From the NCBI GenBank assembly GCA_965200295.1, contig OZ241347.1, positions 2,615,272 to 2,679,271 on the forward strand: a DNA stretch of 64,000 nt, given 5' to 3'. Below, piece after piece: positions 3,374-33,587 of this stretch (position 1 is its first letter; every line of letters begins with the position of its first letter). The position numbers were made by a program, and so were the translations under genes. The notes below the pieces were generated by a model that saw only the letters and a list, made by a program, of their open reading frames with translations, was not told the DNA's origin and ran no database searches. The DNA is from Gammaproteobacteria bacterium. Lineage in GTDB: Bacteria; Pseudomonadota; Gammaproteobacteria; Eutrophobiales; Eutrophobiaceae.

Positions 3374-3411
3374 TGTCTGGTATCAGCCCTTAAGGATACG
3401 GAACTCACAAC

Positions 3412-4119
3412 ATGACCATGAACAACGCGCCCGTCATCACCATAGACGGCCCTAGTGGCACCGGGAAGGGCACCTTGTGCAGTCGTCTCAGCCGCTGGCT
3501 GGGCTGGAACCTACTCGATAGCGGCGCCTTGTACCGGATCCTGGCTTTGCTGGGGCAGCGCGCCGGCTTGCCGGTGACGGATGCCGACGGGGTCGCAGCG
3601 CTGGTGTGGGAGCGGTTTCCTGAAGTGCAATTTACCGGCACGGGCGCAGACGATCCGGTGTCGGTGAGCCTTGATGGAGTTGACGTCGGCGCCCGTATCC
3701 GCCTGGAAGACTGTGGCAACGCAGCCTCCGCGCTGGCGGCGCACGGGGTCGTGCGTGCGTCCATACTGGCTTGGCAGCGCAGCTTTCAGCGCCCGCCCGG
3801 ACTGGTGACGGATGGGCGCGATATGGGCACCGTGGTGTTCCCGGATGCCGAATTGAAGATATTTTTGACGGCGAATCCCCGGGAACGTGCAAAAAGAAGA
3901 TATAACCAGTTGAGTGCAAAAGGGATTGATGTTAACCTAGCGGAGCTTGCAGAGGTGATTGCCGAACGGGACAGGCGGGACACCCGCCGGCGCCTGTCTC
4001 CCCTGAAACCGGCAGCCGACGCGGTTATTGTCGATACCTCCGGCAGCGGGAAGGATGAGGTGTTCGCACGGGTGACGCAGATCATCAGTAACCATAGCGA
4101 TTTGGGCCTGAACATTTGA
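3412..4119 (+). CDS. cmk: cytidylate kinase
   Basis: P-loop ITIDGPSGTGKGT; 235 aa; conserved aroA-cmk-rpsA order. Confidence 0.9.
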   Translation: MTMNNAPVITIDGPSGTGKGTLCSRLSRWLGWNLLDSGALYRILALLGQRAGLPVTDADGVAALVWERFPEVQFTGTGADDPVSVSLDGVDVGARIRLEDCGNAASALAAHGVVRASILAWQRSFQRPPGLVTDGRDMGTVVFPDAELKIFLTANPRERAKRRYNQLSAKGIDVNLAELAEVIAERDRRDTRRRLSPLKPAADAVIVDTSGSGKDEVFARVTQIISNHSDLGLNI

Positions 4120-4156
4120 CAACATTAAACATTAACACACTGAGATAACCTACTAA

Positions 4157-5839: not shown

Positions 5840-5870
5840 CCCGGACGCACAAGAGCGAGGAATAGAATTC

Positions 5871-6152
5871 ATGACCAAATCTGAACTGATCGAAGCGTTG
5901 GCCCGGCAGCAGCCCCAGTTTACCTCCAGGGACATCGAATCGGCGGTGAAAACCATTCTGGAAGCCATGTCCCGGAGTCTGGCCAGTGGGGAGCGCATTG
6001 AGATTCGCGGGTTCGGTAGTTTTTCTCTTCATTACCGGCCGCCCAGAATGGGTCGTAACCCCAAATCCGGTGAGGCGGTGTCGCTACCGCCCAAGCACGT
6101 TCCTTATTTCAAACCGGGGAAGCTGTTGCGGGAACGCGTCGACCGGACCTGA
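5871..6152 (+). CDS. ihfB: integration host factor subunit beta
   Basis: 93 aa; conserved MTKSELIE...GFGSF; directly after rpsA. Confidence 0.9.
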
Positions 6153-6162
6153 GGGCCCGTTG

Positions 6163-6444
6163 ATGTTCTACGTTAAGCTGACGCTGGCCCTGTGCATTGT
6201 CTTGGCCGGGCTGGCGTTTCATGTCCGTAACGCACAGCCGGTGGTTATTGATTTCTATCTGGCCAGCTATGAAATACCCATGTCCCTGCTTGTCGCCGTT
6301 GCTCTGCTTATCGGCGCCCTCCTGGGGGTCTTAGCGAGCCTGCCCGCCCGCTTGAAACTGCAACGCGACAAGGCCAGACTTGGCAGGGAACTCAAAAAGA
6401 TTCAGCCTCAAGGGCAGGATCCATCCGTAGATGATGCAGATTAA
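6163..6444 (+). CDS. lapA: lipopolysaccharide assembly protein LapA-like (DUF1049) small inner-membrane protein
   Basis: internal ATG at 6163 (MFYVKLTLALC...); two TM helices; position after ihfB typical of lapA/yciS. Confidence 0.65.
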   Translation: MFYVKLTLALCIVLAGLAFHVRNAQPVVIDFYLASYEIPMSLLVAVALLIGALLGVLASLPARLKLQRDKARLGRELKKIQPQGQDPSVDDAD

Positions 6445-6478
6445 CGCAGATATTTTTGTAACTACTCGCCCCCTGGTC

Positions 6479-6504
6479 GTCATTCCTGCATTCGCAGGAA
6501 TGAC
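6479..6504. terminator. perfect 11-bp-stem inverted repeat (gtcattcctgc-attc-gcaggaatgac) in the lapA-mfd spacer
   Basis: seen directly; no T-run follows, so it may be a REP-like hairpin rather than an intrinsic terminator. Confidence 0.3.
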
Positions 6505-6575
6505 GGTGAGGAGAGCGGAACAACCTGAAAACTCTTCTTAAAACATCTGCGTTATCTGCGCATAAACTCCATTTC

Positions 6576-9500
6576 ATGTCAGTAAGTCCTCTGCAGCCTG
6601 TGGTGCCGGTGACGGCGCGTGAACGGGTAGTCTGGGAAGGGTTGCCCGGGTGCGGTAAGGCGTTGGCGTTGGCGACAGCAGCCCGGGAACGGGACTCGCT
6701 GTTTGTAGTGATTGCCGCAGACCAGGCCGGCGCGCAGAGGCTCATGGAAGAGTTGGCTTTTTTCAATTCGCCCGGTTCAGGGCTGCCCCTGCGCTCATTC
6801 CCGGACTGGGAGACGCTCCCCTACGATCGCTTTTCCCCCTATCAGGATATCGTTTCCGAACGGCTGGCGACACTGGTGGAACTGCGCGCCATGCGCGCCG
6901 GTATCCTGGTCGTGGCCGTGTCCACCCTGATGCAACGCCTGCCGCCCGCGGCTTACCTGCATGCGCACAGCCTCATGCTGCGCGCCGGGCAGGTCTTAGA
7001 TACAGACAATTTCCGGCAGGAACTGGAGCATAACGGTTATCGGAGTGTGTCCCAGGTCATGGAACATGGCGATGTGGCTGTGCGTGGTTCGATTATCGAT
7101 ATTTACCCCATGGGCGCCGACACGCCGTTCCGGCTTGACCTGTTGGACAATGAGATCGACAGCATTCGTACTTTCGATGCCGAGACGCAACGCTCTCTGC
7201 AGCAAATGCGCGAACTCCGGGTACTGCCGGCTCGGGAAGTACCGTTGACTGCGGCTGCCATTGATCTGTTTCGCAGCAACTGGCGCCAGCGCTTTGCCGG
7301 TAATCCCGGCAACAACCCGGTGTACAACGACGTCAGTAACGGTATTGCCCCGGCCGGCATTGAGTACTACCTGCCCTTGTTCTACGACCATACCAGCGGT
7401 CTTAAGGATTATTTCCCGGCCAACCCCACCATGGTGCCGGATGAGGGCGTTTACGCCGCGGCGCAGGCCTTCCATGAGCTGGCGCAGACCCGTTATGAGC
7501 AGGGGCAACATGACAGTGAGCGCCCGTTGCTGGCGCCGGCGGAGCTGATTTACTCGCCGCTGCAGCTGTTCGAGTTGTTGGCGCCCTATCCGCAAATCCA
7601 CCTCGGCGCTACCGGTCTTGACTCCGGCGCTGTAAAAACTGTGCGCTACCACGCCACCGCGCCGCAGAAATATCCCGTCAATGCGCGCGCGCAGGACCCC
7701 CTGGCTTTGTTGCGCGCGTTCATGCAGGAGTTTGACGGACGTATGCTGCTGGTGGCGGAGTCGCTGGGCCGCCGTGAAACGATCCTGGAATTATTTCAGG
7801 CTGAAAAAACCAGGCCGTCCCCATGCCGGGACTGGGATGAGTTCCGGGCCGGCAACACGCGCTTTGGCCTGACCGTGGCGCCGCTGGAACGAGGGGTGAC
7901 ACTGGCGCGTACGGGTATTGCCATCATCAGCGAGACGCAGTTGTTCGGTGAGCGGGTGCAACAGCGCCGGTTACGAAAAAAAGCCCGACATCTCACTGAC
8001 TCCATTGTCAACAACCTGACCGAGTTATCCATAGGCGCGCCGGTGGTGCATGAGGAACACGGCGTGGGACGTTATCAAGGCCTGGTCACACTCACGGTGA
8101 ACGAGCTGGATACGGAATTCATCTGCCTGGAATACGACCAGGGCGACAAGTTGTATGTGCCGGTGACGGCGCTGGACCGGGTCAGCCGCTTTGTCGGCGC
8201 AGATGCCGAACAGGCGCCCTTGCATCGGCTTGGCAGCGGCCATTGGCTCAAGGCGAAACAAAAAGCCTTGAAACGGGTCTATGACGTGGCTGCGGAATTA
8301 CTGGCATTACATGCCCGCCGCGCCGCGCAGCAGGGGCATGAATTTCGTGTGGATAACAATGCCTATCAGGCATTTGCTCAGGACTTTCCCTTTGAAGAAA
8401 CACCGGGCCAGGCTGAAGCCATCGCCAAGGTGCTGGAGGACATGCGCGCGCAAACCCCTATGGATCGGCTGATCTGTGGCGATTCCGGCTTCGGCAAGAC
8501 CGAAGTGGCCATGCGCGCCGCATTTATCGCGGTGGAAAACCACAAGCAGGTAGCTGTGCTGGCGCCCACCACCTTGCTCGCGCAGCAGCATTACCGTAAT
8601 TTCAGCGACCGCTTCGCAGACTGGCCGGTGCGGCTGGCAGCGCTGTCCCGGTTTGTCTCGCGCAAAGACCAGACTGCGATTTGTGCGGATCTGAACACCG
8701 GCAAAATCGACATCGTCATCGGCACGCATAAATTGCTGCAGGACGGGCTGGCCTTCCACAATCTCGGTCTGATCATCATTGATGAGGAACACCGTTTCGG
8801 GGTGCGGCAAAAGGAAAAACTGAAGTCCTTGCGCGCCCAGGTCGATGTTCTGACGCTGACCGCCACGCCCATCCCGCGCACACTTAACCTGGCCTTGTCT
8901 GACTTGCAGTCCCTGTCCATTATCGCCACGCCGCCGTCGCGACGCCTGCCGATAAAAATTTTTATCAGGGAGTGGGATGAGGTGTGGCTGGCCGAGGCCA
9001 TGTTGCGCGAGCTCAAGCGCGGCGGGCAGGTGTATTTTGTGCATAATGAGATCAGCAGCATAGAAAAAACCGCCAACGAGGTCGCCAGACTGGCGCCGGA
9101 TGCCCGACTGCGCATTGCGCACGGGCAGATGCCGGAGCAACAACTGGAACAGGTAATGCTGGACTTCTACCACCAGCGCTTTAACGTGCTGGTGTGCACC
9201 ACTATTATCGAGACCGGCATCGACGTGCCCAGCGCCAACACCATCATCATCAACCGCGCCGACAAGTTCGGGTTGGCGCAACTGTACCAGTTACGCGGCC
9301 GGGTCGGACGTTCCCACCACCGCGCCTACGCCTACCTGGTGAAACCGGACCGGGGCGCGGTCAGCGACAGCGCGGCGCGGCGTTTCGAGGCCATGGCGGC
9401 GCTGGAGGAGCTGGGTACAGGCTTTACCCTGGCGACGCACGATATGGAAATTCGCGGCGTGGGCGAGATCCTGGGCGATGAGCAGAGCGGCCATGTACAG

Positions 9501-10034
9501 GAAGTAGGGTTTGGCCTGTACATGAACCTGCTGGAACGGGCCGTGGCTTCGCTCAAGGCCGGGCGCCAACCGGAACTGGACCGCCCGCTGGACCACGGCA
9601 CGGAAATAGACCTGCATGTCCCCGCGCTGATACCGGCGGATTACCTGCCCGACGTACACACCCGGCTGGTCATGTACAAGCGCATCGCCGGGGCCGATGC
9701 CGAGCGCGCGCTGTGGGACCTGCAGGAAGAATGTATAGACCGCTTCGGCCTGCTGCCGGAGGCGCTCAGGAATCTGTTCCGCATCGCCCAACTCAAGCAA
9801 GGCGCCCAAGCCCTGGGGATACGCAAGATTGACTTAGCCGCCAAGGGCGGCCGCATACAGTTTGACGAGAACGCAGAGTTCGACCGGGTAAGGCTGATCA
9901 AACTGATCCAGGCTCACCCCGGCCGATACAAATTCGCCCAGGGCGGCAAACTCAGCATCAACCACGAGCTCGCCGACGCCGCCGCGCGCTTCAGTTTTCT
10001 TGAAGGTTTTTTAGGCGAACTAGCCCAACCTTAA
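6576..10034 (+). CDS. mfd: transcription-repair coupling factor
   Basis: 1152 aa; UvrB-homology N-terminus; DEAD/DEAH helicase motifs (GDSGFGKTEVA, DEEHRFG); TRG/TRCF C-terminus. Confidence 0.95.
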   Translation: MSVSPLQPVVPVTARERVVWEGLPGCGKALALATAARERDSLFVVIAADQAGAQRLMEELAFFNSPGSGLPLRSFPDWETLPYDRFSPYQDIVSERLATLVELRAMRAGILVVAVSTLMQRLPPAAYLHAHSLMLRAGQVLDTDNFRQELEHNGYRSVSQVMEHGDVAVRGSIIDIYPMGADTPFRLDLLDNEIDSIRTFDAETQRSLQQMRELRVLPAREVPLTAAAIDLFRSNWRQRFAGNPGNNPVYNDVSNGIAPAGIEYYLPLFYDHTSGLKDYFPANPTMVPDEGVYAAAQAFHELAQTRYEQGQHDSERPLLAPAELIYSPLQLFELLAPYPQIHLGATGLDSGAVKTVRYHATAPQKYPVNARAQDPLALLRAFMQEFDGRMLLVAESLGRRETILELFQAEKTRPSPCRDWDEFRAGNTRFGLTVAPLERGVTLARTGIAIISETQLFGERVQQRRLRKKARHLTDSIVNNLTELSIGAPVVHEEHGVGRYQGLVTLTVNELDTEFICLEYDQGDKLYVPVTALDRVSRFVGADAEQAPLHRLGSGHWLKAKQKALKRVYDVAAELLALHARRAAQQGHEFRVDNNAYQAFAQDFPFEETPGQAEAIAKVLEDMRAQTPMDRLICGDSGFGKTEVAMRAAFIAVENHKQVAVLAPTTLLAQQHYRNFSDRFADWPVRLAALSRFVSRKDQTAICADLNTGKIDIVIGTHKLLQDGLAFHNLGLIIIDEEHRFGVRQKEKLKSLRAQVDVLTLTATPIPRTLNLALSDLQSLSIIATPPSRRLPIKIFIREWDEVWLAEAMLRELKRGGQVYFVHNEISSIEKTANEVARLAPDARLRIAHGQMPEQQLEQVMLDFYHQRFNVLVCTTIIETGIDVPSANTIIINRADKFGLAQLYQLRGRVGRSHHRAYAYLVKPDRGAVSDSAARRFEAMAALEELGTGFTLATHDMEIRGVGEILGDEQSGHVQEVGFGLYMNLLERAVASLKAGRQPELDRPLDHGTEIDLHVPALIPADYLPDVHTRLVMYKRIAGADAERALWDLQEECIDRFGLLPEALRNLFRIAQLKQGAQALGIRKIDLAAKGGRIQFDENAEFDRVRLIKLIQAHPGRYKFAQGGKLSINHELADAAARFSFLEGFLGELAQP

Positions 10035-10042
10035 AGAAAATA

Positions 10043-10123
10043 TCAGTCAATCTTTAATACGCCGTAAAGCAGGACAGCCACATAAAAGGCTACACTTGCC
10101 GTCAGGGCTATAAAGGCAATCAT
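10043..10123 (-). CDS. small hydrophobic peptide (26 aa, MIAFIALTASVAFYVAVLLYGVLKID), copy 1
   Basis: ATG preceded by AGGAAA 5 nt upstream; single predicted TM helix; tandem paralog of the next peptide. Confidence 0.4.
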   Translation of the reverse strand: MIAFIALTASVAFYVAVLLYGVLKID

Positions 10124-10158
10124 ATTTTTCCTGCATGCTTCATATTACAGCGTGTCAA

Positions 10159-10236
10159 TCAAATTGTCAGTGCGCCGTAAAGCAGAACACCAACAAAAAA
10201 GACTGCACATGCTGTCAATGCAATAAATGCCATCAT
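10159..10236 (-). CDS. small hydrophobic peptide (25 aa, MMAFIALTACAVFFVGVLLYGALTI), copy 2
   Basis: ATG preceded by GAGAGGTGG; paralog of copy 1 (about 60% identical) with the conserved core AFIALTA...LLYG. Confidence 0.4.
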   Translation of the reverse strand: MMAFIALTACAVFFVGVLLYGALTI

Positions 10237-10387
10237 GTCTTGCCCACCTCTCTGATATGTTTTTGAATGCGTAGAAAAAGTACTAAATTGGCGCATCCCA
10301 ACATGGAAAGAAGCGCCACACCCGCCCAAAAAACCTCATTGATATTGTCAGACAGGTACAAACTCACCAGCCCGCTTATTATAAGGG

Positions 10388-10417
10388 AACCTCTAAAAAT
10401 GCCCTCCGTGGCATTTT
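10388..10417. repeat. left piece of a palindromic MITE-like element (cctctaaaaatgccctccgtggcatttt) interrupted by the IS110 element
   Basis: the right arm stops after ggcatttt; the missing tagag... resumes at 12204. Confidence 0.7.
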
Positions 10418-12203
10418 GCTATGTAACTTAATTATACCACTCTGTCATTAGGGCGCGCGCGGGTGGGTCTGCACAATGTGAGACCGTGAAGGGCGCCGGC
10501 GTTGCGGCGTGGCTCGCTCTGGCGTATGAGGTGGCCCCGCGTTGGCCTGTGGCCGTGAGGGAGCGTTGCGGCGACGCTGGCAGGTTGACCGGGGGATGTC
10601 AGGCGGCTTCGGGCATGTCAGGGGCTCTGTTGGGGGTGGGGTAGCCATATTTCTGTAGCATTTTGACCCAGCGCGGGGCATTGCGTTTGACCATGAGGGC
10701 CTCGTAGTCGGTGTGCGGGTCCTGGTAGGGCTGGCCGGTAATGAGCATGCGGTAGAGGGTACGCAGCAGTTTGTGTGCGGTGGCGACGGTGGCACGTTTG
10801 TAGCCGCGGCGCACGGTGAGGGCTTTATGGTAGCCTTGGAACTGGCAGTGGTGGGTGCGAGCGGCGCCGTGGGCGCACTCGATGAGCAGGGTGCGCAGGT
10901 GCGGGTTGCCCTGTCGGGTTCGGCCGTGGCGGCGTTTGCCGGCGCTTTCGTTGTTGCCGGGGCACAGGCCGGCCCAGGCGGCGCAGTGGCGGGCGGTGGG
11001 GAAGACCTTCACATCGGGGCCGAGTTCGATGAGCAGCGCGCGTGCGGCGGCGTGGTCGATGCCCGGCAGGGTCATCAGCAGGTCGAGTTGGGCCTGGTAG
11101 GGGGCGAGGTGTTGCCGGATGAAGGCATCGTACTGGGCGATACGGGCGTTGGCGTTGTCGAAGGCGGCGAGTTGGTCTTGGAGGACGAAGCGGGCCTCGG
11201 GGCGCAGGGTGGCGCTGAGTGCGTCGCCCAGGGCTGCCAGTCGGGGACGGACATGGCCGGAGAGGGTGGGCAGGATAGCTGCCGGGGTCAGTCCGGCGAC
11301 CAGGCCGTCGAGGATACGGCGACCGTTGACGCCGAACAGGTCTGAGAGGACTCCGCCGACCCGGAGACCGGCACCGTCGAGGCATTGATGGATGCGGGTC
11401 CGCAGGGTGGCGCGCAGGCGCACCACCTTGTGGCGTTGCCGTGACACCTTGCGCAGGGCGCGAAAGTCGGCGGGCGGCACGAAGCTGGGGCGGCACAGCC
11501 CGAACTGGCAGATACGCGCCAGCCACAGGCTGTCGGCGATGTCGGTCTTACGACCTTTGAGCTGCTTGACGTGCTGGGCATGCACTAAGAGGGGTTCGAT
11601 GCCGGCGCTCTCTAAGGCCTCGAAGACCACCTCCCAATAGATGCCCGTAGCTTCCATCACGGCGGCGCTGACCCGGTGCTCAAGCAGCCAGCCGGTCAGC
11701 TCGCGCAGGCCACTGGGCAGGGCGTTGAAGGTGCGGGTGTGAGTCTCGGCCGCCACGCCGGACTGTGCCAGACGCACGCTGGCAGTGATTTGCATCTTGT
11801 GTACGTCCAGACCCGCCGCGCGGGCGTGGATGACGTGTAAGGTATCAGTGTGTATAGTGTCAGGCATAACGCGTCCTCCGAAGTAAGTGCAAGTGTAGTC
11901 AGGGGCAAGCGCGGGCGGTCAACGGTTAGCAGGCTCGTTTCCGGGTGGGAAACGGCGCATTTTGCTATGCGTCCTCGACGACCTGCGTCGGGTACAAGGC
12001 GGGGCACGATGCCGTTGACCGGGAACAGTTTAGAGACGGGCTTATCAAGCACCGTAAAAAAGAGCGTTCTCGTTTCCCGCGCCTGCCCCGATAGTGTGCA
12101 TCAGGATGAGGCGTTAGCCAACGTCGGGGCTGCGGGGTGCCCGTACCCCCGGCGTTTCTCAGTTACATACCGGCGGGGTGTGCAGCGCTCTGATCATGAA
12201 GGT
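10418..12203 (-). mobile_element. IS110-family insertion sequence (~1.79 kb, no terminal inverted repeats) inserted into a palindromic repeat element
   Basis: boundaries inferred from the split repeat element (10388-10417 and 12204-12322); one internal DEDD-transposase gene. Confidence 0.7.
10599..11867 (-). CDS. IS110-family transposase (DEDD N-terminal domain plus transposase_20 C-terminal domain)
   Basis: 422 aa; GLDVHK motif near the N-terminus; typical IS110/IS1111 architecture. Confidence 0.9.
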   Translation of the reverse strand: MPDTIHTDTLHVIHARAAGLDVHKMQITASVRLAQSGVAAETHTRTFNALPSGLRELTGWLLEHRVSAAVMEATGIYWEVVFEALESAGIEPLLVHAQHVKQLKGRKTDIADSLWLARICQFGLCRPSFVPPADFRALRKVSRQRHKVVRLRATLRTRIHQCLDGAGLRVGGVLSDLFGVNGRRILDGLVAGLTPAAILPTLSGHVRPRLAALGDALSATLRPEARFVLQDQLAAFDNANARIAQYDAFIRQHLAPYQAQLDLLMTLPGIDHAAARALLIELGPDVKVFPTARHCAAWAGLCPGNNESAGKRRHGRTRQGNPHLRTLLIECAHGAARTHHCQFQGYHKALTVRRGYKRATVATAHKLLRTLYRMLITGQPYQDPHTDYEALMVKRNAPRWVKMLQKYGYPTPNRAPDMPEAA

Positions 12204-12322
12204 TTAGAGACGGAAACGAAAAAATGTGATTTTTCGTTTCCTTCATTTTCAAACACTTACGTGCTTAAAAATGGCAGCATGTCCCTATGCTGCACGGCCA
12301 CCTCTAATTTTTAGAGGTGGCC
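12204..12322. repeat. remainder of the long (five-hairpin) composite palindromic element, reverse orientation, ending in the gccacctctaatttttagaggtggc hairpin
   Basis: reverse complement matches the long copies at 38385-38526 and 51573-51720 almost base for base. Confidence 0.75.
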
Positions 12323-12377
12323 TAATGATTAACATCAAGCACACTGTTGCGGCGTTAGGTCATAGGAGTTATCGTTT

Positions 12378-13748
12378 ATGATTGGCATATTGCAAATGCT
12401 GCTGGCGTTCATCGTGGCGCTGGGAGTCCTGATCACGTTCCATGAGTTCGGCCACTTCTGGGTGGCTCGACGTTGTAACGTCAAGGTCCTGCAATTTGCG
12501 GTGGGCTTCGGGCGGCCGTTGTGGCGGCGCAAGTTCGGCGCTGATGACACCGAATTTGTCATTGGCATGGTGCCGTTGGGCGGCTACGTGAGAATGCTGG
12601 ATGAACGCGAGGCGCCGGTGTCGGCAGCCGAGCAGGGCCGGGCCTTTAACAACAAATCGCTGGGGCAACGATTCGCCATTGTTGCCGCCGGCCCCATTTT
12701 CAATTTCATCTTTGCCATCCTGGCGTACTGGCTGGTCTTCATAATTGGCATTACCGGGCTCAAGCCGGTGCTGGGTTCGGTGCAGGACGGCAAGCCGGTG
12801 GCGCAGTCCGGTTTGCAGGCGGGCGATGAGATTATTGCCATCGACGGGCAGGCGACGCCGACCTGGAATACCGCCTTGGAATATCTGGTGGCCGGCGTGG
12901 TCGAAGGCGATACTGCGGCGCTACGGGTACGCGACGGGCGCGGCGCCGAGCGGGCGCTGACGCTGGACCTGGGCGCCATTTCTATCGACGCAATGGCCGC
13001 GGGCAACCTGCTGGACTTGCTGGGTTTCGAGCCGGCGCGCCCGCGCGCGCCGGCGACGCTGGGGCAGGTCAGCTACCAGGGCGCGGCCTGGTGGGGCGGT
13101 CTGCGTGAGGCTGATGAAATCGTGGCCGTTGACGGCGTGCCCGTGCAGGGTTGGCAGCACTGGGTTGAGCTGATCAGGGCGGCGCCTGATACGCCTATGA
13201 CTGTCACCATAGCCAGAGACGGCGCCACCATAGACATGGTAGTCACGCCCGAGGCAAAGACCAGTGAGCAGGGCGAACGCATCGGCTTTATCGGGGTCGG
13301 TCTCGACCCTGCGGCCGGTATGGATGACTCCCTGTTGGCACGCGAAGCCTATCCCTGGCATCAGGCGGCATGGAAAGGAGTAGTTAAAACCATTGATATG
13401 TCTGTTATGACCCTGCAGATATTAGGGCGCATGATTACCGGTCAGGCCTCCCTGAAGAACCTCAGCGGCCCGGTCAGCATTGCCCAGTACGCAGGACAGA
13501 CCGCGCAACTGGGTATAGTTGCATTCCTGGGTTTCCTGGCGCTGGTCAGCATCAGCCTGGGGATTTTGAATCTGCTGCCGATTCCCATGCTCGACGGCGG
13601 TCACCTGTGTTACTATCTGGTAGAGTTTGTCAAAGGCAGCCCGGTGTCGGACGCGGTGCAACTGCTGGCCCAGCGCGTGGGGCTGGTGCTGTTGTTCAGC
13701 CTGATGGCGCTGGCGATTTACAATGACGTCCTGAGACTGGTCGGTTAA
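12378..13748 (+). CDS. rseP: sigma-E regulator site-2 protease RseP (zinc metalloprotease)
   Basis: HEFGH zinc motif at the N-terminus; PDZ domains; C-terminal LDGG motif; AGGAG RBS. Confidence 0.9.
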   Translation: MIGILQMLLAFIVALGVLITFHEFGHFWVARRCNVKVLQFAVGFGRPLWRRKFGADDTEFVIGMVPLGGYVRMLDEREAPVSAAEQGRAFNNKSLGQRFAIVAAGPIFNFIFAILAYWLVFIIGITGLKPVLGSVQDGKPVAQSGLQAGDEIIAIDGQATPTWNTALEYLVAGVVEGDTAALRVRDGRGAERALTLDLGAISIDAMAAGNLLDLLGFEPARPRAPATLGQVSYQGAAWWGGLREADEIVAVDGVPVQGWQHWVELIRAAPDTPMTVTIARDGATIDMVVTPEAKTSEQGERIGFIGVGLDPAAGMDDSLLAREAYPWHQAAWKGVVKTIDMSVMTLQILGRMITGQASLKNLSGPVSIAQYAGQTAQLGIVAFLGFLALVSISLGILNLLPIPMLDGGHLCYYLVEFVKGSPVSDAVQLLAQRVGLVLLFSLMALAIYNDVLRLVG

Positions 13749-13772
13749 AATAGCTCGTAGCTTTGCTTATTT

Positions 13773-16700
13773 ATGGCGAGAGACAGGCAAAATCCTGCGT
13801 GGCTTGCTGCCTTGTTGGCGGCATCGCTGCTCATCCTGACCAGCCTGCCTGCCCAAGTCCTGGCGCAGCAGGTGCTCGTCAGCAACCTCGGCCAAGCCGA
13901 CTTCGCCACCGCCAGCCCCATTGCCAGCTTGCTTGGCGTGTTCGATCACGCCCAGCAATTCACCACTGGCAGCAACAGCGCAGGCTACTGGCTGAGCAGC
14001 GTCGAGATTGAATTCGGCCGACTCGACGCCGGCTTCCCTTTTTCGGTGTCGATTCGCACCAATGCCAGCGGCTCGCCGGGAACAGTGGTGGGTACACTGG
14101 CGAATCCCTCCTACACCGCGTTCACCACCGACACGGTGCTGAAGTTCACGGCGGCGGGCGACGGCATCGCCCTTGCGGCCAGCACGTCGTATTTCCTCGT
14201 CCTCGACGTCACTAGCGACTCCGGCAGCAACTTCGCCACTTGGCGGGTCACCACCTCAATGAGCGAGGACAGCGGCGGCGCCAGCGGCTGGAGCATCGCC
14301 GATCTGCACCGCTTACGGCAGAACGTGGCTGACGCTGCATGGGTCAACAACGTAGTCACCTCCACCCTCAAGATCCGCATCAACGGCTCGGCCGTCACCC
14401 TCCCCACGGTCACCATCGCCCGCGTTGCCACGCCGGTCACCGAAGGCGCGGCTGCCCGCTTCACCGTCAGCCGCACGGGCGCGACCACGGGGGCGTTGGC
14501 GGTGCAAGTGTCGGTGTCCGAGAACAGTGCTGGCGGGCAGAACTTCGTGGCGTCAACCAACGAAGGCGCTAAATCAGTCAGCATTCCTATGGGTTCCGCA
14601 TCGGCGGTCTATTCCGTGGCGACCGTGGGCGATGCCATCGACGAGCCGGACGGCGCGGTGACCGTGACGCTGGCGAGCGGTTCCGGCTATACCGTCGGCA
14701 GCCCGTCAACGGCGAGCGTGATGGTCAACGACGACGACCTGCCGGTTGTCACCATTACCAGCGGTGCATCGTCGGTGACGGAGGGCACGGCGGCAAGCTT
14801 CACGGTGACCCGCGCCGGTCTGACGACGGCGGCGCTGACGGTGAACGTCAATGTCGCGGATGTCGCGGGCAGCGATTTCGTGGCGTCGGACGACGAAGGC
14901 GCGGACACGGTGACGATCCAGGCGGGACAAGCCTCGGCAGCCTACAGCGTCGCCACCGTGGCGGACAGAGTGGTTGAGGCGAGTGGAAATGTGATAGTTA
15001 CCGTATCGACGGGCACGGGCTATACCGTCGGTAGTCCGCCATCCGCGAACGTGATGGTTAACGACGACGATACCGCTGCCGTGCTCATCAACGGCGCGGA
15101 CAGCAACATCACGCTTTCAGTCGGCGAGGACGACGGCACCGCCACCTACACCATCCGGCTCGACAGTCAGCCGAGCCACAATGTCACGGTCACAGTGAGT
15201 TCGGCCAGCGAAAACACAGCCACCGTGAACAAGGCGGGCGGCTCGGCCGGCGAGACGCAGACGCTCACCTTCACGCCGAGCGGCACCGGCGCGTGGAATG
15301 TCGCGCAGACCATCACTATAACCGGTGTCAACAACACTAGCGACGATGCCAACAACCGGCGCACTTCGCTCATCACCCACACGGCGGCTTCGAGCGACGC
15401 CAATTACAGCGGCATCACCCCCATCCCGACCGTCACAGTCACGGTGACCGACGACGACACGCCCGAGTTGACCGTGTCGGCACAGGGCGGCGTCACAACC
15501 GTCAACGAGAACGGCGCCGCCGCGACGATCATCGTCACCTCGAATATTCAAGTCGACGGCTCAATCGACTACGGCCAGCCGAGCGTGTCCACGGGCGGCG
15601 CCGTCAGTGCCGACGGAACGACTATTGCTGGCGGCAACACGAGCAACACCTATACCGTCAGCGCGAGCGACAACAACCGCGACGAGGCCGACTGGTCGAT
15701 CACCACCGGCATTGCCGCCGGCACTGGCTACACACTCGGCTCGCCGAGCGCCGTCATGCTCACTGTTCGCGACGACGACCCGACGGTCGTCTCGCTCGCT
15801 GGCGGTGGCCGCGTGTTCGAAGGCGAGGGGACGACATTCACGGTCACGCTTGGTCGCGACCTCGCCGCCGGCGAGATCATTGACGTGCCGCTGGCCATCA
15901 CCGGTGCTGGCATCACCCCGAGCGACTGGCGTTTGGCGCTTGCGAGCGGCATGGGTCTCAACACAGGCGTGACGCTGAATGGCGCCAACACAGCCACGCC
16001 GCAGCTTCGCTTCGCAGGCGCCGGCGCGCGCACGGCGACGCTGACGCTGACCGCCGAGGCGAGTAGCGGCGGCAAGACAATACGAGTGGAGCTAGGACCG
16101 GATGGCAGCGGCGCCAACGGGTTTGATCGCAGCGGTCTTGGCACCAACGTCGGCGGCGGCGCGGACCCGCACGCCACGGCTCTTCGAATCATGCTGGTGG
16201 TCACTGCCGATACCGTCGTCAACGACCGCGACTTCCTCGCTTTTGTGCGTGCCCCTGGCGAAACATCGGCATCCAGGCGGACTGAAGGCTCGCGTCTGAC
16301 GCTGTCCGTCCACCGTATCGCCTTCACGTCCGACAACAACAACCTGCACACGCCAGACGACTGGGGGTTCCGGCTCTGCTTCACCGGCGCCGCGACGCCC
16401 GGCGCGGACTTTTCGGTCAGCCACGGCGGCGGGCGCACATCGCTCGATCAAGAGGGCTGCACACGGACGAACAGCGCGGAGGACGGCACCGCGTTGCCCG
16501 CGCGACTGAGCGTCGCGCGCTTCTACATCAAGCTCTTGCACGACGATTTGGACGAGAGCGATGAGCGCGTTGTCGCGACCTTGACGCGAACGATTAACAC
16601 CGGGGTTTCCGGGCAAGGATTGAGTGAGTTTCGCTTCACCATCAGCGAGCCGCCCCTGATCGACAAGGTGCGCCACTACACCAGTGAAATTTGGCGCGGC

Positions 16701-19568
16701 TACGATCATGTCCTGCGTTGGCAGCGTGTGCTCTTTGCGCTCAGCGACGGCAGCGAAGGCGAAGGCCCGGCCATGACCGCAACCGAGGCGCAAGACTATG
16801 CGAATCGCGGCATGACCCGCTGGGCGCCAGTGGCGGCGGCGCTCTCACCGCTGCAGACGCAATCGGCAAGCCCACAGGGTGAGGGCAGCGAGGCAAGCTC
16901 ACAGGATGAGGATAGCGAGGCAAGCTCACAGGATGAGGATAGCGAGGCAAGCTCACAGGATGAGGATAGCGAGGCAAGCTCACAGGATGAGGATAGCGAG
17001 GCAAGCTCACAGGATGAGGATAGCGAGGCAAGCCCGCAGAGTGAGGGCAACGAGGTAACCCCGGATAGCGAGACCGAGGGTGAGGCGCCCGCAGACGATG
17101 ATGTGCAGGGTGACGCGCCTTCGGATAGCGAAGCGCCGGTCGAGCCGGTTGCAGCAGAGGACACGTTCGTGCCGGATGCCGCGCTGGTCGCGAACATCCG
17201 TGCCTGGCGCAGCGAGACCCAGCACGGTCAGGCGCATGTGGATCGGTGGACGCGGGTGCTGATCGCGTTCAAAGTAGAAACCGGTAGCCTCGCGCCGATG
17301 AGTGCGGCCGAGGCGCAGACATACCTCGACAAAGGCTGGACGCGCTGGGAACCCGTGGTGACGGCGCTTAAGTCGATGCAAGCTGACACGCAGCAAGCGG
17401 CCGCCTCGGAGCAGAACGACACGCAAGCGACTACCGAGCAAGACGAGGCGCCGCAAGCCACAGACGAGGAGAACGAACCCGCGCCCACAGAGCAGGACGA
17501 AGCGCCAGCGGCCGAGGACGAGCAGGACGAGCCCGTGACCATGGCACAGGGCGATGAACCCGCCCCCACCCCGGCATTGTCGGTCTCGGATGCGAGCGGC
17601 GCAGAAGGTTCGACCATAAAGTTCACCATCACGCTTGCCCCGGCCGCAACAGACACCGTGAGCGTGTGGGTGTCCACCAGAGAGTCGCAGCCGGTGTCCG
17701 CGCATAAGAACAGGGACTACCAGCACAACGGCGAGTGGCTGACGTTCAAGCCCGGCGAGACCCGGCAGCACCACCGGGTTTACACCCTTGACGATGCGCA
17801 CGACGACTCGGGAGAAACTTTCGAGCTGGTACTGTCACAGGCGCGTGGCGCGGTGATCGCCGATGCAGTAGGTGTGGGCACGATCATGAACGACGACCCA
17901 CTGCCGGCGGCCCACCTCGCACGGTTCGGACGCACCGTGGCCGAGCACGCGCTCGGCGGCATCGCCGGGCGCTTGGAGGCACCGCGCGCGCCGGGGCTGC
18001 GCGGTGTGTTTGCCGGCCGGGCATTCAGCGCGGCGCCGGGGAGTAAGACCGGCCACCGGCGGCGTAGCGGGGGGGGTACCGGCGCGCCGAACGGGCTCGA
18101 TGGCTTCCATACCCCCGGCGGGGGCGTCGGCGTGAACCCATCGTCGAGACGATCAGCCTTGGCGGGCGACCTCCATTCAGCCGTTGCTCAGTCACTCGAT
18201 GCCCAATCATTTGATACCCAGTCACCCGACGCTGGCGCCTCCATGACCGCGCGTGCAGTACTGTTAGGGTCGAGCTTCACGCTGACCCGGGCCGCCGACG
18301 GCGCCGGCGGCAGTCTGGCTTTCTGGGGCCGCGCCGCGCAAAGTCACTTTGACGGCGTTGACCGCGGCCACGGTACCGATGTGACTCTCAACGGTAAGGT
18401 CACCACCGCCATGCTGGGCGCCGACTACGCCCGGGGCGACTGGCTCGTCGGCCTGGCGCTGACCGAGACCGCGTCCACAGGCGGCTATAGCGCCGCCGCC
18501 GGTAATCCCTGTATGGGTGAGATCGGAGCCGGGGCTATGGCCGATACTATGGACAGCCCCCCGGAATTGTGCGCTACGGACGGCCCTGGCGCTGCGGCTG
18601 GTCTCGGTGCTACGGCAGGCCTGGGCGCCGGTGAGGTAGAGTCTTCCCTGACGGCCGTCATTCCCTACGCCACGCGCCGGGTCGCCGAGCGGCTGACATT
18701 GTGGGGCGCCACCGGCTATGGCCGAGGCGCAGTGACACTGACGCCGGGCGCCGGTGAAACCCTCACCGGCGACGCCCCCCTCAGTGCTGACACCGACTTT
18801 ACCCTGGCCGCGGTAGGCCTGCGCGGTGACCTGCTCGCTCCCGTCGGATTCGGGCCGGCGCTGGCGCTCACCTCCGATGCCCTGTGGACGCGTACGACCT
18901 CAGCGGGGACGCACGGCCTCCTGGCCTCAGCATCCGCCGTGACCCGGCTGCGGCTGGGTCTGGAGGGCAGCTGGGCGCTGGACTTTGCCGGCGCCCGGCG
19001 TGTTACGCCGACGCTGGCCGTCGGCGCCCGCCACGACGGTGGCGACGCCGAGACCGGCTTTGGTATTGAGCTTGGCGGTGGCGTGCAGTGGATCGAGCCG
19101 CGCCTCGGCCTGACGCTCGACATCTCGGCCCGCACGCTGCTGGCGCATGGAGATGACGACATCAAAGACCGGGGCGTCTCCGCGGCGCTGACCTTCGACC
19201 CGGCGCCGGGGACGCCCTTCGGCCCCCGGCTCAGCCTGCGCCAGGACTTCGGTGGGCCGGCTCAGGGCGGCCTTGATGCACTGTTCCGACCGGAGACGCC
19301 GCAGCCGCGGCACGGCGCTCATGACGCCGCCCGTTGGACGCTGGAGGCGGACTACGGCCTGCCCGCCTTGCAGGGGCGCTTCAGCGCCCGCCCGCTGGCC
19401 GGTATCGGACGCGCCGGCGGGGTGCAGGACTACCACCTCGGCTGGCAGTTGACGCCGGCGGCGGCGCACGCCCCCGACATCTCTTTCAGTGCACGCGCAG
19501 TGCGGCGTGTACCGGCGCGGGCCGCGGCTGAACATGGGATTGAACTCAGGCTCAACTGGCAGTGGTAG
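13773..19568 (+). CDS. giant (1931 aa) surface protein: signal peptide, N-terminal domain, five or more Calx-beta-like ~110-aa repeats, duplicated unknown domain, acidic 9-aa tandem tract, C-terminal autotransporter beta-barrel
   Basis: repeats ending in VNDDD with TEG...F.V.R motifs (Calx-beta-like); C-terminal ~300 aa with alternating beta-strand pattern ending LRLNWQW (type Va translocator signature). Confidence 0.8.
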   Translation: MARDRQNPAWLAALLAASLLILTSLPAQVLAQQVLVSNLGQADFATASPIASLLGVFDHAQQFTTGSNSAGYWLSSVEIEFGRLDAGFPFSVSIRTNASGSPGTVVGTLANPSYTAFTTDTVLKFTAAGDGIALAASTSYFLVLDVTSDSGSNFATWRVTTSMSEDSGGASGWSIADLHRLRQNVADAAWVNNVVTSTLKIRINGSAVTLPTVTIARVATPVTEGAAARFTVSRTGATTGALAVQVSVSENSAGGQNFVASTNEGAKSVSIPMGSASAVYSVATVGDAIDEPDGAVTVTLASGSGYTVGSPSTASVMVNDDDLPVVTITSGASSVTEGTAASFTVTRAGLTTAALTVNVNVADVAGSDFVASDDEGADTVTIQAGQASAAYSVATVADRVVEASGNVIVTVSTGTGYTVGSPPSANVMVNDDDTAAVLINGADSNITLSVGEDDGTATYTIRLDSQPSHNVTVTVSSASENTATVNKAGGSAGETQTLTFTPSGTGAWNVAQTITITGVNNTSDDANNRRTSLITHTAASSDANYSGITPIPTVTVTVTDDDTPELTVSAQGGVTTVNENGAAATIIVTSNIQVDGSIDYGQPSVSTGGAVSADGTTIAGGNTSNTYTVSASDNNRDEADWSITTGIAAGTGYTLGSPSAVMLTVRDDDPTVVSLAGGGRVFEGEGTTFTVTLGRDLAAGEIIDVPLAITGAGITPSDWRLALASGMGLNTGVTLNGANTATPQLRFAGAGARTATLTLTAEASSGGKTIRVELGPDGSGANGFDRSGLGTNVGGGADPHATALRIMLVVTADTVVNDRDFLAFVRAPGETSASRRTEGSRLTLSVHRIAFTSDNNNLHTPDDWGFRLCFTGAATPGADFSVSHGGGRTSLDQEGCTRTNSAEDGTALPARLSVARFYIKLLHDDLDESDERVVATLTRTINTGVSGQGLSEFRFTISEPPLIDKVRHYTSEIWRGYDHVLRWQRVLFALSDGSEGEGPAMTATEAQDYANRGMTRWAPVAAALSPLQTQSASPQGEGSEASSQDEDSEASSQDEDSEASSQDEDSEASSQDEDSEASSQDEDSEASPQSEGNEVTPDSETEGEAPADDDVQGDAPSDSEAPVEPVAAEDTFVPDAALVANIRAWRSETQHGQAHVDRWTRVLIAFKVETGSLAPMSAAEAQTYLDKGWTRWEPVVTALKSMQADTQQAAASEQNDTQATTEQDEAPQATDEENEPAPTEQDEAPAAEDEQDEPVTMAQGDEPAPTPALSVSDASGAEGSTIKFTITLAPAATDTVSVWVSTRESQPVSAHKNRDYQHNGEWLTFKPGETRQHHRVYTLDDAHDDSGETFELVLSQARGAVIADAVGVGTIMNDDPLPAAHLARFGRTVAEHALGGIAGRLEAPRAPGLRGVFAGRAFSAAPGSKTGHRRRSGGGTGAPNGLDGFHTPGGGVGVNPSSRRSALAGDLHSAVAQSLDAQSFDTQSPDAGASMTARAVLLGSSFTLTRAADGAGGSLAFWGRAAQSHFDGVDRGHGTDVTLNGKVTTAMLGADYARGDWLVGLALTETASTGGYSAAAGNPCMGEIGAGAMADTMDSPPELCATDGPGAAAGLGATAGLGAGEVESSLTAVIPYATRRVAERLTLWGATGYGRGAVTLTPGAGETLTGDAPLSADTDFTLAAVGLRGDLLAPVGFGPALALTSDALWTRTTSAGTHGLLASASAVTRLRLGLEGSWALDFAGARRVTPTLAVGARHDGGDAETGFGIELGGGVQWIEPRLGLTLDISARTLLAHGDDDIKDRGVSAALTFDPAPGTPFGPRLSLRQDFGGPAQGGLDALFRPETPQPRHGAHDAARWTLEADYGLPALQGRFSARPLAGIGRAGGVQDYHLGWQLTPAAAHAPDISFSARAVRRVPARAAAEHGIELRLNWQW
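16880..17040. repeat. perfect 27-bp tandem repeat x5 (caggatgaggatagcgaggcaagctca) encoding (SSQDEDSEA)n inside the giant gene
   Basis: seen directly; in-frame acidic low-complexity linker. Confidence 0.9.
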
Positions 19569-33544: not shown

Positions 33545-33587
33545 GGCCACCTCTAAAAATGCCACGGAGGGCATTTTTAGAGGTTCC
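33545..33587. repeat. short palindromic element (ggccacctctaaaaatgccacggagggcatttttagaggttcc) between the divergent phrB and argC
   Basis: canonical 14-bp-arm form with a 7-nt loop. Confidence 0.8.

What the first reader, a model, noticed from the sequence alone, without database searches (positions are those of the whole stretch)
10418..12203. IS110-family element inserted precisely inside a hairpin of the palindromic repeat, upstream of rseP
The short repeat at 10388-10417 stops after ggcatttt. Its continuation tagagacggaaacg... resumes at 12204 and runs into a complete reverse-orientation long element. The intervening ~1.79 kb carries one DEDD (IS110-type) transposase and no terminal inverted repeats. 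IS110/IS1111 members are known to target REP-type palindromes or attC sites, and this copy fits that behaviour. The insertion is 5-prime of rseP. In many gammaproteobacteria rseP sits in a fixed frr-uppS-cdsA-dxr-rseP-bamA array, whereas here mfd and two small-peptide genes lie upstream. So rseP expression may now depend on IS-borne or repeat-borne signals.
Basis: partly seen in the sequence, partly recalled or inferred. Interest (0 to 1): 0.6.

Follow-up and report, generated by a model that had tools for sequence, protein, structure and literature searches.

The report
Bridge-RNA IS110 element inside a repeat hairpin
A 1.79-kb IS110-family mobile element, guided by its own bridge RNA, has inserted into one arm of a repeated palindrome upstream of rseP; this is ordinary behaviour for the family, and the odd neighbourhood of rseP comes from a separate recombination between two copies of the repeat.

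Summary
The IS body is 10418-12202 (1785 bp, transposase on the minus strand). It is flanked by a duplicated TT (10416-17 and 12203-04). Removing the IS and one TT restores a complete ~150-nt repeat element. Near-identical strains carry exactly this empty site (L088, L089, L090).

The transposase is a DEDD/IS110 "RNA-guided transposase". The 335-nt upstream end encodes a structured RNA with strong covariation support. One of its loops carries the target's left half plus core (ccgucucuaAA) and a U-rich complement of the right half. A second loop carries the IS right end plus core. Other copies of this IS sit at the same position in other hairpins. In relatives the guide bases change together with the flanks.

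The guide order is the reverse of IS621 and ISEc21. It matches the order reported for IS1111-type RNAs, although the RNA lies upstream of the transposase gene.

rseP lost its usual upstream neighbour dxr through recombination between two repeat copies. The crossover lies at 12237-12252, 33-49 nt outside the IS, so the IS did not cause it. No IS-borne promoter for rseP was found.

Verdict: a new member of a known kind, of moderate to low interest.

The parts
10390..10417 (+). Left part of the target hairpin: outer arm cctctaaaaatgcc (10390-10403), loop ctccgt (10404-10409) and the first 8 nt of the inner arm, ggcatttt. The last two T (10416-10417) are the left copy of the duplicated core.
   Evidence: Identical to the empty sites in L088 and L090.
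10418..12202 (-). IS110-family insertion sequence body, 1785 bp (1787 bp with one core copy), 65% G+C against 59% for the window. It is the only copy in the window.
   Evidence: Absent from the empty sites. Copies 99% identical occur elsewhere.
10418..10598 (-). Right end (RE, 181 nt), ending ...aagttacatagc at 10418. It contains an outward-facing extended -10-like motif, TGgTATAAT (10439-10431 on the minus strand), about 13 nt from the end.
   Evidence: Sequence. Promoter function is inferred only; junction promoters are known for this family (PMC11187229).
10599..11867 (-). Transposase/recombinase, 422 aa. It has a DEDD RuvC-like domain and a Transposase_20 domain. Predicted catalytic residues are D21, E72, D109, D112 and S308.
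   Evidence: Pfam. NCBIfam NF033542 'IS110 family RNA-guided transposase', 259.9 bits against a cut-off of 140. Alignment to IS621 (8wt6) covers the EATG, KTDxxD and ES motifs.
11868..12202 (-). Left end (LE, 335 nt), starting ccttcatgatcag at 12202. This is the non-coding region upstream of the transposase gene.
11907..12084 (-). Core of the predicted bridge RNA, about 178 nt, with helices P1 to P6.
   Evidence: RNAalifold on 18 relatives. 95.5% of cells are paired, 22 of 45 pairs show compensatory changes, 0 of 500 shuffles reach this, and slid controls give 34-44% paired. Conserved G-U pairs fix the strand. Coordinates.
12055..12064 (-). 5' side of the target-binding loop, CUCUUUUUUA. It is the U-rich guide complementary to the top strand of core plus right target (AA+aa..).
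   Evidence: In relatives: CGUG-UU with AAcacg, CGCU-UU with AAagcg, CGUU-UU with AAaacg, GUUUA-UU with AAtaaac.
12028..12039 (-). 3' side of the target-binding loop, (CCG)UCUCUA-AA-C. It is identical to left target plus core plus the first base of the IS, and forms a 12-nt exact repeat with the junction at 12202-12213.
   Evidence: (D15).
11957..11969 (-). 3' side of the donor-binding (multi-branch) loop, CAUAGC-AA-AAUGC. It equals the IS right end plus core plus 5 nt of the right target, and forms a 13-nt exact repeat with the junction at 10411-10423.
   Evidence: (D9).
12161..12169 (.). LE copy of a 9-bp inverted repeat (agttacata / tatgtaact). The partner is at 10420-10428, 2 nt from the RE tip. 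A 7-bp core, ATGTAAC/GTTACAT, is conserved in relatives.
   Evidence: Its role is unknown.
12203..12204 (+). Right copy of the duplicated TT core (AA on the IS strand).
12205..12325 (+). Rest of the ~150-nt repeat element: the remaining inner arm, then three more hairpins. 12203-12236 is of the mfd-side (E_A) type and everything from 12253 is of the rseP-side (E_B) type. The crossover interval is therefore 12237-12252.
   Evidence: Three-way alignment with L088/L090 and L086. Terminator-like hairpin at 12212-12241.
12378..13748 (+). rseP (M50 protease with PDZ domains), 174 nt downstream of the IS.
   Evidence: 99% identical to P0001 and 89% to P0002.
10043..10236 (-). Two paralogous small hydrophobic peptide ORFs: 10236-10159 (25 aa) and 10123-10043 (26 aa). 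They lie downstream of the outward-facing RE motif, on the same strand.
   Evidence: The genes are also present in the empty-site strains.

Best explanation
This is an active-looking IS110-family insertion sequence that chooses its target with its own bridge RNA.

Mechanism. The 335-nt non-coding end upstream of the transposase gene encodes a structured RNA of about 178 nt. Its first internal loop holds two guides. The 3' strand, (CCG)UCUCUA-AA, has the same sequence as the target's left half plus a 2-nt AA core, so it would pair with the bottom strand. [quoted passage not shown] A second, multi-branch loop holds CAUAGC-AA. This is the IS right end plus core, followed here by 5 nt that match the right target and resemble a handshake guide. 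A DEDD/serine recombinase would exchange strands at the AA/TT core between the circular IS and the hairpin arm. The result is the duplicated TT with no other change.

Why this arm. The inner arm of the terminal hairpin of a ~150-nt repeat element matches the long guide best, at 9 nt plus core. That is why this arm is used here and at other copies.

Population and context. The insertion is polymorphic, with both empty and occupied alleles. Separately, two copies of the repeat element recombined 33-49 nt to the right of the IS. One copy lay downstream of mfd and the small-peptide genes, the other between dxr and rseP. That event placed rseP next to mfd.

Shown: the boundaries, the empty sites, the protein family, the RNA structure covariation, the guide-flank matches and their covariation, and the SNP switch.

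Inferred: that the RNA is made and bound, the strand-exchange chemistry, and the order of events.
For: Boundaries and empty sites:
-.
- Natural empty sites L088, L089 and L090, 99.4-99.6% identical.
- The same site is occupied, with csiV still downstream, in L097.

Protein:
- Pfam DEDD_Tnp_IS110 and Transposase_20.
- NF033542 'IS110 family RNA-guided transposase', 259.9 bits.
- Catalytic motifs align to IS621.

RNA:
- Conserved structure in 18 relatives, 22 of 45 pairs compensatory, 0 of 500 shuffles reach this.

Guides:
- Exact 12-nt and 13-nt repeats between the LE and the two junctions (D15 and D9).
- In 11 related IS lineages the 5 variable guide bases match their own left flanks at 3.38 of 5, against 1.40 of 5 for other lineages' flanks (p = 9e-13).
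- The 5' guide matches its own right flanks at 2.37 nt against 1.32 nt (p = 2.5e-5).

Same target at other copies:
- L080-L085 carry a 99% identical IS. It sits at ...ccgtctcta|AA|IS|AA|a(a)atgccacgg..., in at least 4 further distinct repeat copies.

Rearrangement:
- L086 has dxr-repeat-rseP.
- L087 has tsf-pyrH-frr-uppS-cdsA-dxr-rseP.
- L088 and others have mfd-peptides-repeat-csiV.

Mechanistic framework: PMC11208160, PMC11208158, PMC11187229.
Against: - No RNA data: transcription, the RNA ends and binding to the protein are all untested.
- No guide for the IS left end (the right donor) could be found in the second loop.
- The right-target guide in this copy gives only 4-5 A-U pairs.
- The order of the two target guides is the reverse of the experimentally studied IS621 and ISEc21, so the details of the synapse cannot simply be copied from those systems.
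- The guide-flank statistics treat sites within one lineage as independent, which they are not.
- No Rfam family matched.
- The recombinant junction is seen only in this window. All public contigs of close strains show the parental arrangements.
Confidence: 0.82

Rival explanations
1. The IS itself created the mfd-rseP junction. This could be homologous recombination between two IS copies sitting in the two repeat copies, or recombinase-mediated recombination at the core.
For: The IS lies within 50 nt of the synteny break. Bridge recombinases can invert and excise DNA (PMC11208160). IS110 elements have been linked to large rearrangements (bioRxiv 10.64898/2026.03.19.712850).
Against: The 34 nt immediately right of the IS (12203-12236) carry the three SNPs of the mfd-side repeat copy. 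The switch to the rseP-side type occurs only at 12237-12252. An exchange inside the IS or at the core would make the right flank rseP-type from 12205 on. L097 shows the IS at this site with the parental csiV side intact.
Confidence: 0.06
2. The mfd-IS-rseP join is an assembly chimera made through the repeated element or the IS. The IS insertion would still be real, but rseP would not truly lie next to it.
For: Only the window shows the recombinant. Every public contig from close strains shows dxr-repeat-rseP or mfd-repeat-csiV. A path switch inside a 150-nt repeat would look exactly like the clean SNP switch.
Against: The window carries a multi-copy 1.8-kb IS inside a contig of at least 64 kb. 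Short-read assemblies break there: L080-L085 and L097 all end at or in the IS. This suggests long reads, which would span a 150-nt repeat. I could not examine reads.
Confidence: 0.12
3. The upstream non-coding region is only a leader or regulatory region of the transposase mRNA. Target choice would then come from protein recognition of the hairpin structure.
For: The target is a palindrome. For ISPpu10 a target stem-loop contributes to recognition (bioRxiv 10.64898/2026.03.19.712850). There are no RNA data here.
Against: The variable loop bases change together with the flanks across lineages whose targets are not this hairpin. Helices are maintained by compensatory changes. RNA guidance has been shown experimentally for several members of the family (PMC11208160, PMC11187229).
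Confidence: 0.04

Closest known systems
IS621 (IS110 group) and its bridge RNA (Durrant et al. 2024, PMC11208160; Hiraizumi et al. 2024, PMC11208158)
   Same: - DEDD plus serine recombinase.
- RNA of about 180 nt encoded in the left end, upstream of the gene.
[quoted passage not shown]
- A second loop holds the donor (IS end) sequence.
- 2-nt core duplication and no terminal inverted repeats.
- Bases just 3' of a guide match the non-cognate partner, like handshake guides.
   Different: - The protein is only distantly related (E = 1e-9; 422 aa against 326-328 aa).
- The core is AA, not CT.
- The guide order is reversed: the top-strand-pairing short guide is 5' and the bottom-strand-pairing long guide is 3'.
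- The donor guide sits in a multi-branch loop.
- No right-donor guide was found.
- No Rfam or covariance-model hit.
ISPpu9 and ISPpu10 of Pseudomonas putida, and other IS110 members that target REP sequences (PMC12288879; bioRxiv 10.64898/2026.03.19.712850)
   Same: IS110-family elements that insert at one fixed position and orientation in a repeated extragenic palindrome. Many unoccupied targets remain in the genome.
   Different: A different host lineage (uncultured, sponge-associated Gammaproteobacteria), a different repeat family, an AA core instead of CT, and less than 45% protein identity to any plasmid-borne IS110.
IS1111-type seekRNAs, e.g. ISEc11 (Siddiquee et al. 2024, PMC11187229)
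   Same: - The order of the target-matching segments: the segment complementary to the top strand is 5' of the one complementary to the bottom strand.
- Donor-binding bases lie in a multi-branch loop, as Durrant et al. report for many IS1111 members.
- A subterminal inverted repeat is present.
   Different: - The non-coding region is upstream, not downstream, of the transposase gene.
- The transposase is 422 aa, against about 330-350 aa.
- The left copy of the inverted repeat lies 33 nt inside the end.
The long-transposase subgroup around IS110 itself (395-455 aa; PMC11187229)
   Same: Size, upstream non-coding region and absence of terminal inverted repeats. The best annotated relatives are Streptomyces, Rhodococcus and Burkholderia 'IS110 family transposase' genes at 37-45% identity.
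   Different: I found no description of the RNA guides of this subgroup in the papers I read. I did not test membership by phylogeny.

Membership tests
IS110 family (ISfinder sense) | N-terminal DEDD (RuvC-like) catalytic domain | tested here: met
   PF01548, 4.2e-23. E72 and D109/D112 align with E60 and D102/D105 of IS621. D21 lies in GLDVHK.
IS110 family (ISfinder sense) | C-terminal Transposase_20 domain with the catalytic serine | tested here: met
   PF02371, 7.5e-22. NES(308)AG aligns with YESGS of IS621.
IS110 family (ISfinder sense) | Curated family model above its cut-off | tested here: met
   NCBIfam NF033542, 259.9 bits against a cut-off of 140.
IS110 family (ISfinder sense) | No terminal inverted repeats and no long target duplication (2-nt core only) | tested here: met
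   The ends ccttcatg... and ...acatagc are not complementary. TT is duplicated relative to the empty sites.
IS110 family (ISfinder sense) | Site- and orientation-specific insertion | tested here: met
   Six further contigs carry the 99% identical IS at the same position in the hairpin.
IS110 family (ISfinder sense) | Circular intermediate with abutted ends and a junction promoter | not testable with these tools
   Only an outward-facing TGgTATAAT motif near the RE tip is seen.
Bridge RNA of the IS110 group (IS621 type) | Structured non-coding RNA in the left end, upstream of the recombinase gene | tested here: met
   LE is 335 nt, longer than the 181-nt RE.
Bridge RNA of the IS110 group (IS621 type) | Target loop with one guide for the bottom strand of left target plus core and one for the top strand of core plus right target | tested here: met
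Bridge RNA of the IS110 group (IS621 type) | Order: bottom-strand guide on the 5' side of the loop, top-strand guide on the 3' side | tested here: not met
   The order is reversed in this IS and in all relatives examined. The reference order comes from PMC11208160 and PMC11187229.
Bridge RNA of the IS110 group (IS621 type) | Donor loop with guides for both IS ends | tested here: inconclusive
   The left-donor guide CAUAGC-AA is present and covaries, with column 169 matching in 13 of 13 sequences. No right-donor guide was found.
Bridge RNA of the IS110 group (IS621 type) | Match to a curated RNA family model | tested here: not met
   No Rfam 15 hit at E <= 1.
IS1111 group | Long non-coding region downstream of the transposase gene | tested here: not met
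   The structured RNA lies in the upstream end.
IS1111 group | Subterminal inverted repeats of 7-17 bp close to both ends | tested here: inconclusive
   A 9-bp inverted repeat exists, but its LE copy is 33 nt from the end.
IS1111 group | Top-strand match 5' of bottom-strand match in the RNA | tested here: met
   compared with PMC11187229.
IS1111 group | Transposase of about 330-350 aa related over its full length to that of IS1111 | not tested
   The length of 422 aa argues against this. Klebsiella plasmid IS110-family hits are about 27% identical, but I did not establish which group they belong to.
REP/BIME-like repeated extragenic palindromes (the target) | Short imperfect palindrome, many intergenic copies, alone or within composite elements | tested here: met
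   Ten arm matches against 0.4 expected. Three composite ~150-nt copies occur in the window, and further copies in other contigs.

The most novel reading that the evidence does not exclude
This element and its relatives (85% to about 53% protein identity, all with an AA core, mostly in sponge-associated metagenome-assembled genomes) may represent a bridge-RNA architecture that has not been described. It would combine the upstream location and long recombinase of the IS110 type with features reported for IS1111-type RNAs. These features are the reversed guide order and donor guides in a multi-branch loop. A handshake-like extension of up to 5 nt would be a further feature. If so, the recombination site has the opposite polarity relative to the cargo compared with IS621. 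Donor recognition may then rely on one RNA guide plus a subterminal repeat.
Probability: 0.3. Interest if true: 0.55.

Novelty: new member of a known kind. Interest (0 to 1): 0.35.

Why it matters
For the genome, it documents a recent, still polymorphic insertion. It also shows that the repeat elements, not the IS, broke the widely conserved dxr-rseP linkage in this strain. That serves as a caution against reading IS proximity as causation.

For the bridge-recombinase field, it adds a natural element whose target and donor guides can be read directly from the sequence and checked against real empty sites. It also points to a clade whose guide order differs from the two experimentally studied IS110-type systems. 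That clade may be useful when mining for new programmable recombinases.

It does not open a new biological question.

Tried and rejected
1. Rfam search of 9800-12800 at E <= 1 gave no hit.
2. My first hypothesis, after L086 showed dxr upstream of rseP, was that the IS marks the rearrangement breakpoint through IS-IS recombination. The three-way SNP alignment and L097 rejected it.
3. I searched for a right-donor guide as the complement of AA+cctt.. in the LE and RE, and by a column-by-column covariation scan. Nothing convincing emerged. The only perfect column (174 against RD+4) rests on two lineages.
4. Exact-protein look-ups of the window's RseP and Mfd found nothing on record. Near-identical homologues had to be used instead.
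5. I looked for the reciprocal dxr-repeat-csiV junction through CsiV contigs. Only parental arrangements or contig ends were found.
6. The promoter scan for rseP found no sigma-70-like site between the IS and rseP. The one + strand match inside the IS (11830-11858) is at chance level.
7. More distant relatives (37-40% identity; L065/L066 and L073-L076) seem to use an AG core and show junction-like repeats in the LE. I could not place these in the same structure, so they are not used as evidence.
Full report
**1. The observation**

The sequence is as described. The left flank ends with cctctaaaaatgcc-ctccgt-ggcatttt at 10417. Unrelated sequence of 65% G+C follows, and at 12203 the text continues tttagagacggaaacg.

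Intact copies of the hairpin in the window read CCTCTAAAAATGCC-N6-GGCATTTTTAGAGG. They lie at 33550, 42804 and 57765. The arm pattern occurs 10 times against 0.4 expected by chance.

An intact hairpin has five T, and the occupied site has four on the left and three on the right. TT is therefore duplicated. The IS body is 10418-12202 (1785 bp), and the insertion adds 1787 bp.

Joining 10415 to 12203 gives a sequence that aligns across the junction without a break to the two other long copies of the repeat. It matches 51723-51572 at 92% over 153 nt and 38526-38383 at 90% over 144 nt.

**2. Real empty sites**

Contigs from closely related strains settle the point.

- L088, L089 and L090 are 99.4-99.6% identical to window 3422-10417. 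They run straight from ...ggcattttt into agagacggaaacg..., with no IS.
- Five more contigs show the same empty site (L093-L096 and L099).
- L097, from a JGI metagenome, ends 60 nt inside the same IS at the same position, with the parental downstream gene csiV.

The insertion is therefore precise and polymorphic in the population.

**3. The element**

- The 422-aa ORF on the minus strand (11867-10599) has DEDD_Tnp_IS110 and Transposase_20 domains.
- It scores 259.9 bits on NCBIfam NF033542, 'IS110 family RNA-guided transposase', against a cut-off of 140.
- It is only distantly related to IS621 (E = 1e-9). The EATG, KTDxxD and ES motifs nevertheless align, giving D21, E72, D109, D112 and S308 as predicted catalytic residues.
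- The best annotated relatives in plasmids are 37-45% identical, from Comamonas, Streptomyces, Rhodococcus and Burkholderia.
- The closest genomic relatives (up to 85%) are in uncultured Gammaproteobacteria and other metagenome-assembled genomes, many with sponge-associated family names.
- The ends are not inverted repeats of each other.
- A 9-bp inverted repeat links LE positions 34-42 with RE positions -11 to -3. Its 7-bp core is conserved in relatives.

**4. Why it lands here: a bridge RNA**

Two exact repeats link the upstream non-coding end to the two junctions.

- 12028-12039 equals 12202-12213 (GTTTAGAGACGG).
- 11957-11969 equals 10411-10423 (GCATTTTGCTATG).

Read on the IS strand, these are ccgucucua-AA-c (left target, core, first IS base) and cauagc-AA-aaugc (IS right end, core, right target).

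An alignment of this region from 18 relatives folds into a conserved structure of six helices. Of 45 pairs, 22 show compensatory changes and 95.5% of cells are paired. No shuffle out of 500 reaches this, and slid controls give 34-44% paired. Conserved G-U pairs show that the RNA is on the transposase strand.

The first repeat forms the 3' strand of an internal loop between helices P2 and P3. The 5' strand of the same loop is CUCUUUUUUA, which is complementary to the top strand of AA plus the A-run of the right target. The second repeat forms the 3' side of a multi-branch loop.

**5. Comparative test of the guides**

Multi-copy relatives allowed the ends and flanks of 11 lineages to be defined.

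- The five variable bases before the invariant AAAC match the lineage's own left flanks at 3.38 of 5. They match other lineages' flanks at 1.40 of 5 (p = 9e-13).
- The 5' strand matches its own right flanks over 2.37 nt beyond the core, against 1.32 nt (p = 2.5e-5).
- Clear individual cases are UUGUG-AAA with ..tgtgaAA, CUGCAG-AAA with ..gcagaAA, AUCAA-AAA with ..atcaaAA, CGUG-UU with AAcacg, CGCU-UU with AAagcg and GUUUA-UU with AAtaaac.
- The donor guide follows the right end: U in this IS where the end has t, and A in the Longimicrobiales lineage where the end has a.

These statistics overstate independence, because sites within a lineage share one guide. The pattern is nevertheless consistent across lineages.

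**6. Other copies of this IS**

The identical protein is encoded on 22 public contigs. In the six that could be read, the 99% identical IS sits at ...ccgtctcta|AA|IS|AA|a(a)atgccacgg... These are repeat copies with different outer flanks.

Including the window, four distinct sites are in the inner arm of the terminal hairpin of a long element, and one is in a stand-alone hairpin. The inner arm gives the longest match to the guide, which fits RNA-guided choice.

**7. Comparison with known systems**

The logic is that of IS621 bridge RNAs and of seekRNAs (PMC11208160, PMC11208158, PMC11187229). Insertion into REP-type palindromes is long known for IS110 members (PMC12288879; bioRxiv 10.64898/2026.03.19.712850).

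There are differences.

- The core is AA.
- In IS621 and ISEc21 the guide that pairs with the bottom strand is on the 5' side and the one that pairs with the top strand is on the 3' side. Here, and in all relatives examined, the order is reversed. That is the order reported for IS1111-type seekRNAs.
- The placement of the donor guide in a multi-branch loop is also reported for many IS1111 members.
- Yet the RNA is upstream of the gene and the protein is of the long IS110 type.
- The 5 nt after the donor guide match the right target of this site. This fits the handshake idea if the geometry is mirrored. In close relatives those bases are constant while the right targets vary, so only the first one or two are likely to matter.
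- I could not find a guide for the IS left end.

**8. The rseP context**

Downstream, the usual order is kept: rseP, a 1931-aa gene, bamA, lpxD, lpxA, lpxB. Upstream, the usual genes are missing.

- A species-level relative has tsf-pyrH-frr-uppS-cdsA-dxr-rseP (L087).
- A strain 98.4% identical over 12203-13916 has dxr, an intact repeat element, then rseP (L086).
- Strains 99.5% identical on the other side have mfd, the two small-peptide genes, an intact repeat element, then csiV.

The window is therefore a recombinant of two loci that each carry a copy of the ~150-nt repeat.

The three-way alignment locates the exchange. From the IS to 12236 the window has the three bases of the mfd-side copy (12211, 12217, 12236). 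From 12253 on it has the three bases of the rseP-side copy. The crossover lies in 12237-12252, 33-49 nt outside the IS.

The IS did not mediate the exchange. L097 shows the IS at this site before, or without, the exchange. The recombinant is seen only in this window, so an assembly chimera through the repeat cannot be excluded. I rate it at about 0.12.

**9. Expression of rseP**

The transposase and the RNA are transcribed away from rseP. The outward-facing TGgTATAAT motif at the RE tip points towards the small-peptide genes, not towards rseP. Between the IS and rseP lies a terminator-like hairpin (12212-12241). The scan found no promoter-like site in 12205-12377.

In L086 the same repeat already separates dxr from rseP. 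Any dependence on repeat-borne signals would therefore predate the rearrangement. This remains untested.

**10. Verdict**

The mechanism of target choice can be read from the element itself and is of a known kind. The unusual neighbourhood of rseP has a separate cause.

I file this as a new member of a known kind. It has one feature, the reversed guide order with an upstream RNA, that deserves a check against the wider IS110 phylogeny.

Noticed in passing
window 12237-12252, with L086 and L088-L090: The ~150-nt repeat elements act as recombination substrates. The window joins the mfd-side copy to the rseP-side copy, which breaks the conserved dxr-rseP linkage.
   Followed up: yes
window 11933-11956 (minus strand) and 12212-12241: Helix P6 of the predicted RNA (CCGUUUCC...GGAAACGA) shares 7-nt and 9-nt matches with the stem of the repeat hairpin next to the insertion site (ggaaacgaaaaa...tttttcgtttcc). 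About 0.09 such 9-mers are expected by chance. In relatives the P6 sequence differs.
   Followed up: partly
window 10431-10439 (minus strand): An extended -10-like motif, TGgTATAAT, lies 13 nt from the RE tip and faces outward. It would read into the LE in a circular form. In the integrated form it would read towards the two small-peptide genes on the same strand.
   Followed up: no
window 10043-10236 (minus strand): Two tandem paralogous ORFs encode 25-aa and 26-aa hydrophobic peptides (MMAFIALTACAVFFVGVLLYGALTI and MIAFIALTASVAFYVAVLLYGVLKID), convergent with mfd. They are conserved in the close strains.
   Followed up: partly
L004 2176-6265; L050 2165-5684: Head-to-tail tandem copies of related IS110 elements. 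In L004 they are separated only by AAA (catagc-AAA-ctctcatg), one A more than a simple circle junction would give.
   Followed up: partly
window 13773-19568: A 1931-aa ORF sits between rseP and bamA. It has no Pfam hit in its first 576 aa, contains acidic DEDSEASSQ repeats and has an autotransporter-like C-terminal part. It is also present after rseP in L087.
   Followed up: no
L088 681-2846 versus window 3366-3421: The close strains carry a ~2.1-kb insert between aroA and cmk that includes an N6/N4 DNA methyltransferase gene. The window lacks it.
   Followed up: no
L081 1694 onward; L083 1976 onward; L084: Some copies of this IS are damaged or unusual. L081 is interrupted at IS position 1607 by a DDE_Tnp_1 element and L083 is truncated 5 nt before the RE tip. 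L084 has 'ac' instead of the AA core on the left and a different hairpin type (aattagagg) on the right.
   Followed up: no
L065/L066 and L073-L076: More distant relatives (37-40% identity) appear to use an AG core. Their LE carries 8-10-nt copies of both junctions, but the arrangement did not fit the structure found for the AA-core clade.
   Followed up: partly
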